Assembly: GCA_964522105.1 (NCBI GenBank)
Contig: CAZFVA010000004.1
Location: 24,740 to 88,739, forward strand
Length of the DNA: 64,000 nucleotides
Source: an uncultured Anaeromyxobacteraceae bacterium
Lineage (GTDB): Bacteria > Myxococcota_A > UBA9042 > DTJE01
Direction of reading: 5' to 3'
In this document: one piece after another, positions 60,232 through 63,414 of the stretch
Layout of the letters: the number at the start of each line of letters is the position of its first letter
How positions within the stretch are numbered: the first letter of the stretch is position 1
The notes under the pieces: generated by a model
What the model was told of the DNA's origin: nothing
Database searches by the model: none
Seen by the model: only the letters and a program-made list of their open reading frames with translations
Made by a program: the position numbers and the translations under genes

Positions 60232-60839
60232 GTGAAGGCAGCGTAAACAGGCGTCTGCTTGTCGTGGGGGGCCTGTTCTACGGGGTCCTGGCGGTCGCCA
60301 TAGTCCTGGTCGCCGTGCTGCTGCCCGATCTGTTCGGATTCAGAATCCTGCCCATGGAAACCGGCAAGTTTTTCTTCAGTTTGCTGTCCGGGCTGTTGGC
60401 CGGGGTCGGCATCGTCGGGATTTCGTGGCTTCTTGTGGTGTACACGTCCAGCGGGCGTCAGCTAGCGCGTAAGATGGCTGAGGCTGTCGGCAGACTTCGA
60501 CTTGTAGAGGCCCTCTTATTGTCGCTGATGGCTGGTGTCGTCGAAGAGGCTTTCTTTCGTGGTTCGCTGTGGACGCTTGTGGATCATTTTGTCGGACCGT
60601 GGCCGGCGCTGGCGGTGACTTCGGTGTTGTTCGGTTTTGCCCACGGTGCTTTTCGAAAGGGGCTCGGTCTGTGGGGTGCGTTTGCCCTGTTGAGCGGCCT
60701 TGTTGCCGGGGGCCTTAGAATATGGACCGGCGCAATTCTGGCCCCGGTCGTCATGCATGTATTGATTGATGCCGTGAATTTGCCGTTAATCGTTCGTTAT
60801 TTCAGCGTTTCCGACGGACAGCCATCCCGATTCCAATGA
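60228..60839 (+). CDS. CPBP family intramembrane metalloprotease (CAAX protease / Abi family)
   Basis: Motifs AGVVEEAFFRG and FGFAHG, plus multiple TM helices. Confidence 0.7.
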   Translation: MSEGSVNRRLLVVGGLFYGVLAVAIVLVAVLLPDLFGFRILPMETGKFFFSLLSGLLAGVGIVGISWLLVVYTSSGRQLARKMAEAVGRLRLVEALLLSLMAGVVEEAFFRGSLWTLVDHFVGPWPALAVTSVLFGFAHGAFRKGLGLWGAFALLSGLVAGGLRIWTGAILAPVVMHVLIDAVNLPLIVRYFSVSDGQPSRFQ

Positions 60840-63414
60840 ACAGTAAAGACAGGCCGCAGCAGGCCAGGGCGAAAATGTCGCCATATCGGATATAGAGGGT
60901 GGCTTCGTTTGTAAGGGCAACGTCTTCGACAAGATATTCAGCATCATTAATTTCGGTGTGCGAAACGATTCTGCCGAGCGGATCAACTATGGCTGAAATG
61001 CCGGTGTTTGTTGATCGTACCATGTACGATCTGGCCTCTACTGCCCTCAGTTGAGACAGTTGAAAATGAAGCCATGGTTCCGCCGTCTTGCCAAACCAGG
61101 CATCGTTCGTGATGTTGATCAGTATGTTGGGTTGAAGTTCGGCCAGCCGTCTGTGGAAAGAAGGAATAATTCCCTCGTAACAGATTGATATTCCTATTCT
61201 TGCGTCTTTCAGTTTGAATATCATCGGTTCAGTACCCGGGGTCCAGTCACCGGCTTCCGGGAACCACTTTCTGAAGAACGGGAACCATTTTTCAAACGGG
61301 ATGTATTCCCCGAATACCAGAAGCCTGTTTTTGAAGTATGTCCCCAGGACTTTTCCCTGACCGTCGATCATTACAGCGGAGTTGTGTTTGATCGCTTCTT
61401 TCCCTTCCTGTGGGAATCTTTCCATTGTGGCCGCGCCAAATATCAGAGGAGTCGAAAATCCGCGCATTACCGAATTGCGGTCCATCTGCGGGGTGTTGCG
61501 GTCCTTTTTGTATGCAGGCAATGTGTTTTTGTACGAGCCCTCTTCTGGAAGGGGGGCTTTTGAAACGTAGATCTTCTTTGCATCAAGCGGGTACGGGTAA
61601 CCTTCTTTGAACGGTATTTCAGTCAGGCCGGTCAGGCGGCCTTCCGCGCCTTCCAGGAGCTTTGGCGCCCGGTTGTCTTCAGGGAAAAGTTCGACAACCA
61701 GGCCGTCTTCCCCTGCCGCCCATGCGTGGCCGGTGCTGTCTGAAACGACCGAGGTAAGATTACGGCGCACACCTGCCGGCACACGTTTGCACGTTTCCTG
61801 ACAGCGGATAACTTCGCCGTCATCCCCGACAGCCCAGGTTATCGGCCCTGCCGAGATCGATCGAAGGGTTCGTTTTGTCGGCTGCTCGGTTCTTACCTCT
61901 GTTGCGTTCGCAACTTTGACAATGGTTCCGGAATGACCGGCGGCGACAAGGCCTGATTCAGCGGACCAGGCGACGGCACTCAGATCAGGCAGGCCTTCCG
62001 GGCCCAGATCCTTGATTTTTCCGCCCTTTATGGAAAACAGGGTGCCTTTGTCGCCACACACGACCCAGCCGAAATCCGGGGTGCTGACAGCGCCCCGAAG
62101 TGTAGTAAATCTGCCGGTGTCCATAGTTTTCCACTTGCCATCAAGCCGGAACATCACGACGCCGTTGTCACCGACTGCGATAGCTTCTTCGCTGTCGTGC
62201 GACCAGGCAACCGCGTTCAGATTTCTGTCTGTATCTGTAGATTCCCGGGTCCAGGCGCGACCGTCAAAATGGTAGGCGGCCCCGCGGGGACCTGCCGCAA
62301 TGATGTTTTCTTCATTCATGGCTGCGATGGCGGACAGACCGGAATTTTTAAATACGGAAGGCGCCTGGTCTGCCGTTCCCTTTTCCAGCGAGACGCCACC
62401 TTCACCGATCCCATATATGTTGCCGCCAAAAGATACGGCCAGCGCCTGGTTTGCTGTTCGACGGGTGAAAACCCGGTAAAGTGGGAAATAGGACGATTCA
62501 GGCCAGACTATCAGGTCAGGATGACTTTCTTTTTCAATTAGCTGTGAAATATACTGATGTTTCAACAGGTTGGAGTACAGCATGGTCATCTGGTCAGCCG
62601 CATCCATCTGGGAGCCGTCAGCGTTTTGAGCCTCTTTTTCCCAGATGCCGATGTCGGCTTCGACGATGCCAACTTTGAATTTCGGGGCTTCGGCCATTCG
62701 TTTTTCAATGACATTGATCCTTGTCAGGCCATAAATTGTTACTGCAAAGAAAGCGCTGGCAGCTATAAGGACAGTAAATTTCGGGAAAGGCGTCTTTGAA
62801 ATTCTGGATACCAGGATTTCTGCGATCGCGCAGTTGACCAGAATAATCAGGAATGTGATGCCGGAAACACCCGTAATGTCAGCAATTTGTACTATGGCTG
62901 TAAATCTTTGCTGACCGTTGCCCTGATACCACGGGAATATCAGCGGGGCTGCGTATTCTATGGCGGTAAAGATTATCGGGAACACAAGTATCCATGGCAG
63001 TGAAGGGATGCGTTTGATGATGCCGGCCGCTGCACCGGCACTGAATGCATAGACCAGCCCCTGCACAAGGATTAACAGACAAGTAACCACCCATGACGAC
63101 CAGACTTCCATGTGGGCGAAGCTCTGGAGCATGTTTGAAATCCAGTAGAACCCGCCAAGATTTTCAAAAAAACCGGAAATAAGGCCGAGCAGGAAGGCAG
63201 CCGCAAAGCCGCGTCCGCGGATCGCCAGAATCAGTCCGGCAAGTCCGAACCAGGCAAGTGGAAACAGATTGGTGTCAGGAAACGCTGCAATCGAGACGCA
63301 TCCGCCCACGGCCGCCGCCAGAATCGCAAGCGGCGTACTTAGAAGCGCCGAAGACTGTTGTTTTCTTGAAGGCTTCGGTTTTCTGGCTGATGAGGGGGTC
63401 TTTGTAGGTTTCAT
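60802..63414 (-). CDS. lnt: apolipoprotein N-acyltransferase with a roughly 330-aa six-repeat beta-propeller-like insertion
   Basis: Multi-TM N-terminus. CN-hydrolase triad context WPESSYFP (Glu) ... (Lys region) ... ISICYEGIIPSF (Cys). Between the Glu and Lys motifs lie six A/W-A-V-G-D-x-G-x-V-type repeats (residues about 315..640, nt about 61500..62470). Confidence 0.75.
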   Translation of the reverse strand: MKPTKTPSSARKPKPSRKQQSSALLSTPLAILAAAVGGCVSIAAFPDTNLFPLAWFGLAGLILAIRGRGFAAAFLLGLISGFFENLGGFYWISNMLQSFAHMEVWSSWVVTCLLILVQGLVYAFSAGAAAGIIKRIPSLPWILVFPIIFTAIEYAAPLIFPWYQGNGQQRFTAIVQIADITGVSGITFLIILVNCAIAEILVSRISKTPFPKFTVLIAASAFFAVTIYGLTRINVIEKRMAEAPKFKVGIVEADIGIWEKEAQNADGSQMDAADQMTMLYSNLLKHQYISQLIEKESHPDLIVWPESSYFPLYRVFTRRTANQALAVSFGGNIYGIGEGGVSLEKGTADQAPSVFKNSGLSAIAAMNEENIIAAGPRGAAYHFDGRAWTRESTDTDRNLNAVAWSHDSEEAIAVGDNGVVMFRLDGKWKTMDTGRFTTLRGAVSTPDFGWVVCGDKGTLFSIKGGKIKDLGPEGLPDLSAVAWSAESGLVAAGHSGTIVKVANATEVRTEQPTKRTLRSISAGPITWAVGDDGEVIRCQETCKRVPAGVRRNLTSVVSDSTGHAWAAGEDGLVVELFPEDNRAPKLLEGAEGRLTGLTEIPFKEGYPYPLDAKKIYVSKAPLPEEGSYKNTLPAYKKDRNTPQMDRNSVMRGFSTPLIFGAATMERFPQEGKEAIKHNSAVMIDGQGKVLGTYFKNRLLVFGEYIPFEKWFPFFRKWFPEAGDWTPGTEPMIFKLKDARIGISICYEGIIPSFHRRLAELQPNILINITNDAWFGKTAEPWLHFQLSQLRAVEARSYMVRSTNTGISAIVDPLGRIVSHTEINDAEYLVEDVALTNEATLYIRYGDIFALACCGLSLLFIGIGMAVRRKR

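What the first reader, a model, noticed from the sequence alone, without database searches (positions are those of the whole stretch)
60802..63414. Lnt with a large beta-propeller-like insertion in its periplasmic nitrilase domain
The 870-aa Lnt has a normal N-terminal polytopic domain and the catalytic residues (WPESSYFP ... ISICYEG). Between the Glu and Lys regions lie about 330 extra residues with six repeats of the type AAGPRGAAYHFDG, AVGDNGVVMFRLDG, VCGDKGTLFSIKG, AAGHSGTIVKV, AVGDDGEVIRC and AAGEDGLVVEL. These are typical of Ycf48/BNR-like six-bladed propellers. This is a substantial accessory domain on an essential lipoprotein-maturation enzyme. It could recognise substrates or partners.
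Basis: seen in the sequence. Interest (0 to 1): 0.55.

Follow-up and report, generated by a model that had tools for sequence, protein, structure and literature searches.

The report
Lnt enzyme carrying an inserted propeller
This is a real, apparently active lipoprotein N-acyltransferase (Lnt) with a seven-bladed beta-propeller inserted into a loop beside its active-site entrance, a design kept across a whole clade of uncultured Myxococcota-like bacteria and, as far as I could find, not described before.

Summary
Window 60802-63414 (-) is one uninterrupted 870-aa ORF that scores as Lnt. The Glu306/Lys695/Cys745 triad is intact, but Glu and Lys are 388 residues apart, against 57-69 in ordinary Lnt.

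AlphaFold2 (pLDDT 94, pTM 0.92) shows that residues ~318-602 form a closed seven-bladed propeller, not a six-bladed one. A conserved Pro-rich linker of about 55 residues follows it. Both sit in the loop after the catalytic Glu strand, which I equate with "Arm 5" of E. coli Lnt, one of the loops ringing the substrate funnel.

It is not an artefact. Three near-identical 870-aa sequences from Logan and JGI collections, and about 50 homologues at 32-61% identity, share the architecture with an invariant triad. GC3 is uniform along the gene.

The propeller has no Asp-box motifs and no Pfam hit of its own. Its nearest sequence relatives are COG4447/PSII_BNR (Ycf48-like) proteins.

Propeller-less paralogues of about 620 aa nest inside the long clade (bootstrap 100/100). 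In four MAG accession series, their protein accessions share a prefix with those of the long form. The propeller was therefore lost secondarily in a duplicate.

Function is inferred only. Most likely it is a periplasmic docking platform at the mouth of the substrate funnel. This is a new variant of a known enzyme, of moderate interest.

The parts
60802..63414 (-). Complete lnt coding sequence (870 aa plus stop codon)
   Evidence: The ORF is listed. TIGR00546 scores 250.8 bits. PDB Lnt sequence hits reach E = 1e-24 to 1e-26. Foldseek gives TM 0.76-0.80 normalised to E. coli and P. aeruginosa Lnt.
62689..63414 (-). Residues 1-242: a low-confidence cytoplasmic Lys/Pro/Ser-rich tail (1-26) followed by the N-terminal helical membrane domain
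   Evidence: Pfam LNT_N covers 38-196.
62464..62688 (-). Residues 243-317: first part of the nitrilase-like domain (beta1, alpha1, beta2), ending in WPE with catalytic Glu306 (codon 62497-62499)
   Evidence: Strands 245-252 and 301-303 and helix 272-297 are seen. WPE is invariant in all long forms and in alignment A1. It aligns to E. coli IIWPES.
61609..62463 (-). Residues 318-602: inserted seven-bladed beta-propeller. The closing blade is built from the C-terminal strand 594-599 plus N-terminal strands 324-328, 333-337 and 340-343. The other blades are 362-391, 399-431, 439-469, 478-510, 517-544 and 553-587.
   Evidence: The full-length AF2 model has pLDDT 94.0 and pTM 0.92. The insert alone gives pLDDT 94.2 and pTM 0.92. 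The top Foldseek match is the seven-bladed designer propeller 7bid at TM 0.83. A profile of the insert matches Ycf48 (8am5_S) at E = 1.5e-5.
61450..61608 (-). Residues 603-655: conserved Pro-rich linker and helix alpha2 (P601, P607, P609, D611, P621-L-P623, D645-R646, R651-G-F653). It is shared with the ~620-aa propeller-less relatives.
   Evidence: Column conservation is, the alignment with the 620-aa forms, and invariant columns of A3/A4.
60877..61449 (-). Residues 656-846: remainder of the nitrilase-like domain, with Lys695 (codon 61330-61332), Glu703, and Cys745-Tyr746-Glu747 (Cys codon 61180-61182)
   Evidence: Pfam CN_hydrolase covers 667-832. The invariant columns are K695, E703, C745 and E747. 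Alignments to the PDB Lnt sequences 5n6m_A and 5n6h_A are, and to 5vrg_A and 6nwr_A.
60805..60876 (-). Residues 847-870: C-terminal transmembrane helix (H8)
   Evidence: Helix 847-869 appears in the AF2 model. It aligns to the C-terminal helix of E. coli Lnt.
63416..63706 (-). DUF167/YggU-family gene directly upstream. One base separates its stop codon from the lnt start, so the two are probably co-transcribed.
   Evidence: The ORF is. PF02594 scores E = 1.5e-16 and TIGR00251 also matches. The same arrangement is seen in L001-L003 and L008-L010.
60228..60839 (+). CPBP/Rce1-like intramembrane protease gene, convergent with lnt, with 38 bp of overlap at the 3' ends. This is conserved context, not shown to be functionally linked.
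   Evidence: The ORF is and PF02517 scores E = 2.4e-16. The same arrangement occurs in L001, L007, L008 and L014.

Best explanation
The gene encodes a catalytically competent apolipoprotein N-acyltransferase. The loop after the catalytic Glu strand (beta2 to alpha2, which I equate with 'Arm 5' of the nine arms that ring the E. coli Lnt active-site funnel) has grown from roughly 15-20 residues to about 340. It now consists of a closed seven-bladed beta-propeller (318-602) and a conserved Pro-rich return linker (603-655).

Shown by the data:
- The architecture, the intact triad and the rigid, confident predicted fold.
- Conservation across a deep clade of uncultured Myxococcota-like bacteria.
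- Secondary loss of the propeller in a duplicated paralogue.

Inferred:
- The chain enters the propeller at strand B and leaves it after strand A of the same blade. By the usual propeller geometry, the A-B/C-D loop face then sits against the enzyme, and the D-A/B-C loop face, the usual ligand-binding face, points away.
- The propeller therefore stands at the rim of the funnel through which phospholipid and apolipoprotein enter.
- There it most likely acts as a periplasmic protein-docking platform. It could hold the polypeptide part of incoming apolipoproteins, or a partner of the maturation and trafficking pathway. This would bias which substrates the long paralogue acylates or where it hands them on.

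Confidence in the identity and architecture is about 0.95. Confidence in the docking-platform mechanism is about 0.35.
For: Identity as Lnt:
- TIGR00546 scores 250.8 bits against a cutoff of 132.9, and Pfam finds LNT_N plus CN_hydrolase.
- Foldseek gives TM 0.76-0.80 to solved Lnt structures.
- E306, K695, E703, C745 and E747 are invariant in 84 sequences. The K-to-C spacing of 49 is the same as in ordinary Lnt.

Propeller:
- The DSSP pattern shows 7 blades of 4 strands with a 1+3 closure, at pLDDT 94 and pTM 0.92, both full length and alone.
- Seven-bladed propellers top the fold search.

Insertion site:
- The E. coli sequence has about 17 residues where this protein has about 340.
- The arm definitions, and the role of the arms in guiding substrates, come from Wiktor et al. 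2017 (PMC5500888) and PMC8689077.

Selection for the fold:
- 50 homologues keep the blade glycines and hydrophobic strands while core identity falls to about 40%.

Functional divergence of paralogues:
- The 620-aa forms nest within the long forms at 100/100 bootstrap.
- Their NCBI accessions share prefixes with those of the long form and lie about 1,000-1,700 numbers away.
Against: - No ligand-binding patch is conserved family-wide. The conserved propeller positions are almost all structural Gly, Ala, Val or Leu, with only five moderately conserved acidic residues.
- Both faces are about equally acidic, so charge does not single out a binding face.
- The propeller has been lost, shortened or replaced at least twice. 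One MAG shows it truncated. It is therefore dispensable for folding and probably for catalysis.
- I had no model coordinates. The orientation relative to the funnel is deduced from topology and published E. coli structures, not measured.
- No partner or substrate is identified.
Confidence: 0.6

Rival explanations
1. The propeller has a structural or steric role rather than a recognition role. It could be a rigid periplasmic spacer, shield or oligomerisation module that positions or stabilises the nitrilase-like domain without binding a specific ligand.
For: Conservation is almost purely structural, with no family-wide surface patch. Neither face carries a distinctive charge. The high pTM indicates rigid packing onto the enzyme.
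Against: A 285-residue domain kept over deep divergence is a costly way to provide stability. Ordinary Lnt and the 620-aa paralogues are stable folds without it. Propellers inserted at active-site loops usually bind something, but that is general knowledge and was not tested here.
Confidence: 0.2
2. The long form is a specialised acyltransferase for a non-canonical substrate, as AatD is for Aap. The 620-aa paralogue would then be the housekeeping Lnt, and the propeller would select that special substrate.
For: Close relatives carry both forms in the same MAGs. The paralogues diverged after a duplication. Lnt-like enzymes with other substrates are known (AatD, described in PMC8689077).
Against: The long form is the ancestral state of the whole clade and occupies the conserved DUF167-lnt-CPBP-MurU-like-AmgK-like neighbourhood. 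The 620-aa copy sits in an unrelated sugar-catabolism and redox context. The long form passes the Lnt equivalog cutoff. Whether the deeper long-form lineages have any second Lnt is unknown.
Confidence: 0.12
3. The insertion is neutral or decaying. The domain was captured once and is tolerated because Arm 5 is permissive, and it has no current function.
For: The Glu-Lys segment varies widely in length in this wider clade: 89, 106-134 and 190-197 residues as well as 372-433. The propeller has been lost at least once and is truncated in L010. It evolves faster than the core (21-55% identity against 40-67%).
Against: All seven blades, the closure and the blade glycines are retained in about 50 divergent sequences with no frameshifts. 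Independent predictions are highly confident. A neutral 285-residue insert would not survive that much divergence intact.
Confidence: 0.06
4. The insertion is an assembly or annotation artefact, that is, a chimeric contig or a frameshift fusion with a neighbouring propeller gene.
For: Nothing positive. G+C is raised over the insert (0.58 against 0.48-0.51).
Against: The insert lies inside the nitrilase-like domain, between catalytic residues that are all needed. The ORF is continuous. GC3 is the same in all segments (0.53-0.59), so the G+C difference comes from Gly/Ala/Val/Arg-rich composition. An identical protein is held in NCBI, and near-identical 870-aa proteins come from Logan and JGI collections. 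About 50 homologues share the architecture.
Confidence: 0.01

Closest known systems
Apolipoprotein N-acyltransferase Lnt of E. coli and P. aeruginosa (PDB 5N6H, 5N6M, 5VRG, 8B0K and others)
   Same: [quoted passage not shown] The Glu/Lys/Cys triad is present, as are the equivalents of Glu343, Tyr388 and Glu389. The K-to-C spacing is the same. TM is 0.76-0.80.
   Different: The beta2-alpha2 loop (Arm 5) has about 17 residues in E. coli and about 340 here, made of a seven-bladed propeller plus a conserved linker. Trp237 of E. coli aligns to Glu261, and the nearest Trp (W258) lies three residues upstream. The gene context is DUF167-lnt. From memory, not checked here, the E. coli context is ybeZYX-lnt.
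Ycf48/HCF136 photosystem II assembly factor and the COG4447/Pfam PSII_BNR propellers (PDB 2XBG, 5OJR, 8AM5)
   Same: Both are seven-bladed propellers of about 40-residue blades. A profile of the insert finds Ycf48 at E = 1.5e-5. Four of 20 family members hit PF14870, with a best E-value of 9.5e-6. The closest non-Lnt relatives carry PSII_BNR hits or the JGI name 'photosystem II stability/assembly factor-like', and JGI gave P0008 that double name.
   Different: The query itself has no PSII_BNR hit. TM to Ycf48 is only 0.59-0.63, lower than to WD40-type propellers. There is no Asp-box. It is an internal domain of a membrane enzyme, not a free lipoprotein, and has no link to photosynthesis.
Propeller-less Lnt paralogues of about 620 aa in the same MAG lineages (P0029-P0033)
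   Same: Core identity to the query is 56-58%. They share the WPE(S/T)SY motif, the same Pro-rich linker and the DRNAxxRGFxTPxxFG motif, and have an intact triad.
   Different: About 25 low-complexity residues replace the 285-residue propeller, and remnants of the flanking strands are still alignable. The genomic context is different.
Mycobacterial Ppm1, an Lnt domain fused to polyprenol-monophosphomannose synthase (recalled from memory, not checked here)
   Same: It is an Lnt that has acquired an extra domain.
   Different: That case is an end-to-end fusion with a cytoplasmic enzyme domain. This one is an insertion of a periplasmic propeller inside the catalytic domain.

Membership tests
Lnt (NCBIfam TIGR00546; Pfam PF20154 + PF00795) | Family model scores above the curated cutoff | tested here: met
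   TIGR00546 scores 250.8 bits against a cutoff of 132.9. LNT_N scores 93.9 against 27.1, and CN_hydrolase 86.2 against 23.2.
Lnt | Glu/Lys/Cys catalytic triad (E. coli E267, K335, C387) | tested here: met
   E306, K695 and C745 are present. They are invariant in the 84-sequence alignment and in all full-length long forms, and they align to E. coli Lnt.
Lnt | Other residues reported as essential or invariant in E. coli (E343, Y388, E389, W237; PMC5500888) | tested here: inconclusive
   E703, Y746 and E747 are present and invariant or nearly so. W237 aligns to E261, with a Trp (W258) three residues upstream.
Lnt | Helical membrane domain with the nitrilase-like domain between the last two helices, on the periplasmic side | tested here: met
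   The AF2 model has the helices, the nitrilase-like domain and a C-terminal helix at 847-869. TM to solved Lnt structures is 0.76-0.80. Sidedness is inferred by homology only.
Lnt | N-acylation of diacylated apolipoproteins using a phospholipid acyl donor | not testable with these tools
   This needs an enzyme assay or complementation.
Ycf48 / Pfam PSII_BNR (PF14870) | Pfam model hit above the gathering score | tested here: not met
   PF14870 gives no hit for the query at E <= 1. Only 4 of 20 family members hit it, with a best E-value of 9.5e-6.
Ycf48 / PSII_BNR | Seven-bladed propeller fold | tested here: met
   There are seven four-stranded blades. Ycf48 structures are matched at TM 0.59-0.63 and E about 5e-8.
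BNR/Asp-box repeat proteins (PF02012) | Asp-box motif S-x-D-x-G-x-T/S-W in the blades | tested here: not met
   There are no strict matches in the query or in any of 50 long forms.
WD40 repeat proteins (PF00400) | WD40 repeat model hits above the cutoff | tested here: not met
   The query scores 13.9 bits against a cutoff of 27. Five of 20 members give weak hits. The resemblance is in fold only.

The most novel reading that the evidence does not exclude
The propeller makes N-acylation selective. In these bacteria the long and the propeller-less Lnt paralogues would divide the lipoproteome between them, or the long form would be physically coupled to a downstream sorting machine. The propeller at the funnel rim would read protein features of the incoming apolipoprotein or dock the partner. 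That would be the first case of substrate or pathway choice made at the Lnt step, which is regarded as indiscriminate in model organisms.
Probability: 0.2. Interest if true: 0.75.

Novelty: new variant of a known kind. Interest (0 to 1): 0.5.

Why it matters
Lnt is the last enzyme of lipoprotein maturation in diderm bacteria and a drug target. All solved structures show a compact enzyme whose short arms form the substrate funnel (PMC5500888, PMC8689077). This clade shows that one arm can carry a whole folded 285-residue domain while the catalytic machinery stays intact.

Nature has also provided the control, because a sister paralogue in the same genomes has deleted the domain. That pairing makes one question directly testable: does anything other than the lipid-modified N-terminus influence which proteins Lnt acylates?

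It also marks Arm 5 as a permissive site for engineering. The finding rests on uncultured organisms and the function is inferred, so its present value is as a well-defined hypothesis and construct design, not a discovery of mechanism.

Tried and rejected
It worked only after the WPESSY flank was added (A4).
- A sequence search of PDB with residues 207-319 alone found nothing. The full profile was needed to align the W237 region.
- An exact-sequence contig look-up for the window protein and for P0299 found no record. The source organism is therefore known only as an NCBI contig of 173,669 bp.
- I tested whether one propeller face is distinctively charged or conserved. Both faces are about equally acidic, and loop conservation does not separate them once the structural B-C glycines are discounted. 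I rejected this as evidence for a binding face.
- Asp-box and WD motif searches were negative.
- No second Lnt and no other propeller of this type is encoded in the 64-kb window.
- Four literature searches found no paper describing a propeller-bearing Lnt. The library does not cover most subscription journals.
- The weak NCBIfam 'Bdello_MAT_N' hit on residues 335-417 (E = 0.21) is noise.
- I did not get model coordinates, so inter-domain contacts could not be measured.
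Full report
**Observation**

Window 60802..63414 on the minus strand is a single 870-aa ORF starting at an ATG.

Pfam finds the Lnt N-terminal membrane domain at 38-196. It finds only the C-terminal two thirds of the carbon-nitrogen hydrolase domain, at 667-832. The NCBIfam Lnt equivalog model scores 250.8 bits against a cutoff of 132.9, split into two stretches. Solved Lnt sequences from P. aeruginosa and E. coli match residues 656-867 with E = 1e-24 to 1e-26.

**Size and position of the insertion**

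I aligned the query with 120 homologues from the protein search and counted residues between the catalytic columns.
- Ordinary Lnt has 57-69 residues between Glu and Lys. The query has 388.
- 51 cluster representatives of 815-953 aa, including two partial sequences, have 372-433.
- WPE, Lys and Cys are unchanged in every full-length one, and the Lys-to-Cys spacing is normal.
- In an 84-sequence alignment, E306, K695, E703, C745 and E747 are invariant and Y746 nearly so.
- A profile alignment to E. coli Lnt shows about 17 E. coli residues, between "IIWPESAITD" and "DKGSSLVTG", where this protein has about 340.
- The E. coli Trp237 position aligns to Glu261 here, with a Trp three residues upstream. 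That one feature is unresolved.

**Structure**

AlphaFold2 on the 84-sequence alignment gives mean pLDDT 94.0 and pTM 0.92 for the whole 870 residues.
- The secondary-structure string shows the Lnt membrane helices.
- It then shows beta1 (245-252), alpha1 (272-297) and beta2 (301-303), followed by WPE.
- Next come 28 strands in seven sets of four, plus a final strand at 594-599.
- After that come short bridges, helix alpha2 (632-646), and the rest of the nitrilase-like fold with a C-terminal helix at 847-869.
- The last propeller strand (594-599) completes the first blade (324-328, 333-337, 340-343). The ring is therefore closed in a 1+3 fashion, and the chain enters and leaves through the same blade.

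The insert alone (318-602) folds to the same topology with pLDDT 94.2 and pTM 0.92.

Foldseek against the PDB matches the full model to Lnt structures at TM 0.76-0.80, normalised to the target. It matches the insert first to seven-bladed designer propellers (7bid, TM 0.83), then to WD40 proteins such as WDR5 (about 0.68) and to Ycf48 (5ojr and 2xbg, 0.59-0.63). The domain therefore has seven blades.

**What kind of propeller**

- The query has no significant Pfam propeller hit.
- A profile of 20 inserts finds designed 'Cake' propellers (E = 1e-11) and Ycf48 (8am5_S at 1.5e-5, 5ojr at 1e-3) among PDB sequences.
- Scanned one by one, 4 of 20 inserts hit PSII_BNR and 5 of 20 hit WD40, all weakly.
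- The exhaustive profile search finds 64,493 representative proteins at E <= 1e-3 and 5,562 at E <= 1e-30. The top hits are giant proteins with up to 26 matched stretches.
- Of eight smaller top hits, four pass the PSII_BNR gathering score. The best hit is named 'photosystem II stability/assembly factor-like' by JGI, as is one Lnt homologue, P0008.
- No Asp-box occurs in any of 50 long forms.

I therefore place the domain in the broad Ycf48/COG4447-like propeller superfamily. It is not a member of Pfam PSII_BNR, BNR or WD40.

**Not an artefact**

- The insert interrupts a domain whose two halves are both needed, and the frame is continuous.
- The higher G+C of the insert (0.58 against 0.48-0.51) lies in codon positions 1 and 2. 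GC3 is 0.53-0.59 throughout.
- A 100% identical protein is held in NCBI on a 173,669-bp contig. 870-aa proteins from the same 90%-identity cluster (one of them 99% identical) come from Logan and JGI collections.
- Homologues down to 32% identity have the same architecture.

**Where it occurs**

All named carriers are metagenome-assembled genomes. They are labelled Myxococcota, Deltaproteobacteria, Myxococcales, Anaeromyxobacteraceae or Oligoflexales. None is a cultured organism.

**Evolution**

Relatives of about 620 aa (P0029-P0033) have only 127-134 residues between Glu and Lys.
- They share with the long forms the WPE(S/T)SY motif, the first residues after it, and the whole Pro-rich linker ending in DRNAxxRGFxTPxxFG.
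- About 25 low-complexity residues stand in place of the propeller.
- On a tree of 458 core columns with the insert excluded, they sit inside the long-form clade, next to the query's subclade.
- In 100 bootstrap replicates, the grouping of the 620-aa forms with the query's subclade, and the placement of further long forms outside that group, each appear 100 times. Monophyly of the long forms alone appears 0 times.
- NCBI protein accessions of long and short forms share a prefix in four cases: HOD06509/HOD08207, HPB49890/HPB50999, HQP94971/HQP96021 and HNZ02523/HNZ03922.
- P0004 and P0032 occur in the same JGI sample, and both list a longest contig of 654,395 bp.

I conclude that a duplication occurred in the query's subclade and that one copy deleted the propeller. 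A second group with 89-197 residues (P0055, P0056, P0058, P0060, P0062) is nested near the base of the other long-form clade with weaker support. One MAG (L010) has an in-frame loss of about 110 propeller residues. No second Lnt lies in this 64-kb window.

**Context**

The long form keeps a neighbourhood of DUF167/YggU, lnt, a convergent CPBP/Rce1-like protease, a MurU-like nucleotidyltransferase, an AmgK-like kinase and a protein of about 1,130 aa without family matches. This holds in the window and in relatives down to about 45% identity. It does not hold in the most distant long-form clade (L011-L013). The 620-aa paralogue lies elsewhere, among sugar-catabolism and redox genes. The DUF167 stop codon and the lnt start codon are one base apart.

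**How it probably works**

Published E. coli and P. aeruginosa structures describe loops, or 'arms', that radiate from the nitrilase-like domain and the membrane domain. They form a funnel with the triad at its base, about 13 Å above the membrane, and are thought to guide lipid and lipoprotein in and out (PMC5500888; PMC8689077). [quoted passage not shown] The figure legend prints 'beta1', but from the order of elements I read it as beta2. That is my inference.

The insertion lies exactly between beta2/WPE and alpha2, so it is an enlarged Arm 5. The chain enters at strand B and exits after strand A of one blade. Standard propeller geometry then puts the A-B/C-D loop face against the enzyme and the D-A/B-C face outward. 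This is also inference, because I had no coordinates. The pTM of 0.92 argues for a fixed orientation.

I therefore favour a docking platform at the funnel rim, either for the protein part of apolipoproteins or for a pathway partner.

Against a specific site:
- Conserved propeller positions are nearly all structural. Only E368, D396, D455, D477 and D559 are conserved polar residues.
- Both faces are similarly acidic.
- The linker is much better conserved than the propeller. It may itself line the funnel.

**Comparison and novelty**

The enzyme is a member of the Lnt family on every test I could run, except one unresolved residue. The inserted domain works like, but is not a member of, the Ycf48/PSII_BNR family. 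Lnt with an added domain is known from mycobacterial Ppm1 (from memory, not checked). That case is a terminal fusion, not an insertion in the catalytic domain.

Four full-text searches found no description of a propeller-bearing Lnt. JGI's automatic double name for P0008 shows that pipelines already see both parts. I rate it a new variant of a known kind, with interest 0.5. A lipoprotein specialist would find it notable, and it comes with a natural deletion control. But the function is inferred and the organisms are uncultured.

Noticed in passing
window 54618-58013 (+): A 1131-aa protein with an N-terminal signal-like sequence and about six tandem copies of a ~25-residue unit (EVSFNYAASGTKGGAASDLNCTNCV-like, each with two Cys). 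It has no Pfam or NCBIfam match. An orthologue of about 1130 aa occupies the same position next to the AmgK-like gene in L001, and homologous ORFs occupy it in L007 and L014.
   Followed up: partly
window 58133-60231 (+): Two adjacent genes, overlapping by 4 bp, whose best matches are the peptidoglycan-recycling pair AmgK (MurNAc/GlcNAc kinase) and MurU (MurNAc-1-P uridylyltransferase). Both score below the NCBIfam equivalog cutoffs. The MurU-like protein has an extra C-terminal hexapeptide-repeat region.
   Followed up: partly
window 60228-60839 (+): A CPBP/Rce1-like intramembrane protease gene, convergent with lnt and overlapping its 3' end by 38 bp. It gives weak, sub-cutoff similarity to the MrtS, MrtJ and myxosortase-type CTERM-sorting proteases. 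The convergent overlap is conserved in L001.
   Followed up: partly
L010 4531-7401 (MAG VGRB01000107.1): The syntenic Lnt of this MAG has an in-frame gap of about 110 residues that removes roughly blades 4-7 of the propeller. This is either a genuinely decaying propeller or an assembly collapse between the repeated blades.
   Followed up: no
L004-L006 (P0032 loci): The propeller-less 620-aa Lnt paralogue lies downstream of genes with KduI, TPP-enzyme, AP_endonuc_2 (xylose-isomerase-like TIM barrel), GFO_IDH_MocA oxidoreductase and PfkB sugar-kinase domains. It lies next to a 1200-aa multi-domain flavin/iron-sulfur protein. This context is unrelated to that of the long form.
   Followed up: no
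P0056 and P0060 (about 700 aa Lnt homologues): A third Arm 5 variant has 190-197 residues between Glu and Lys. It aligns neither to the propeller nor fully to the linker, so another, different insertion may occupy the same site.
   Followed up: no
P0121-P0142: The propeller profile's best matches are giant proteins of 2,000-6,700 aa with up to 26 matched stretches, that is, long tandem arrays of this propeller type. Their organisms and roles are unknown.
   Followed up: no
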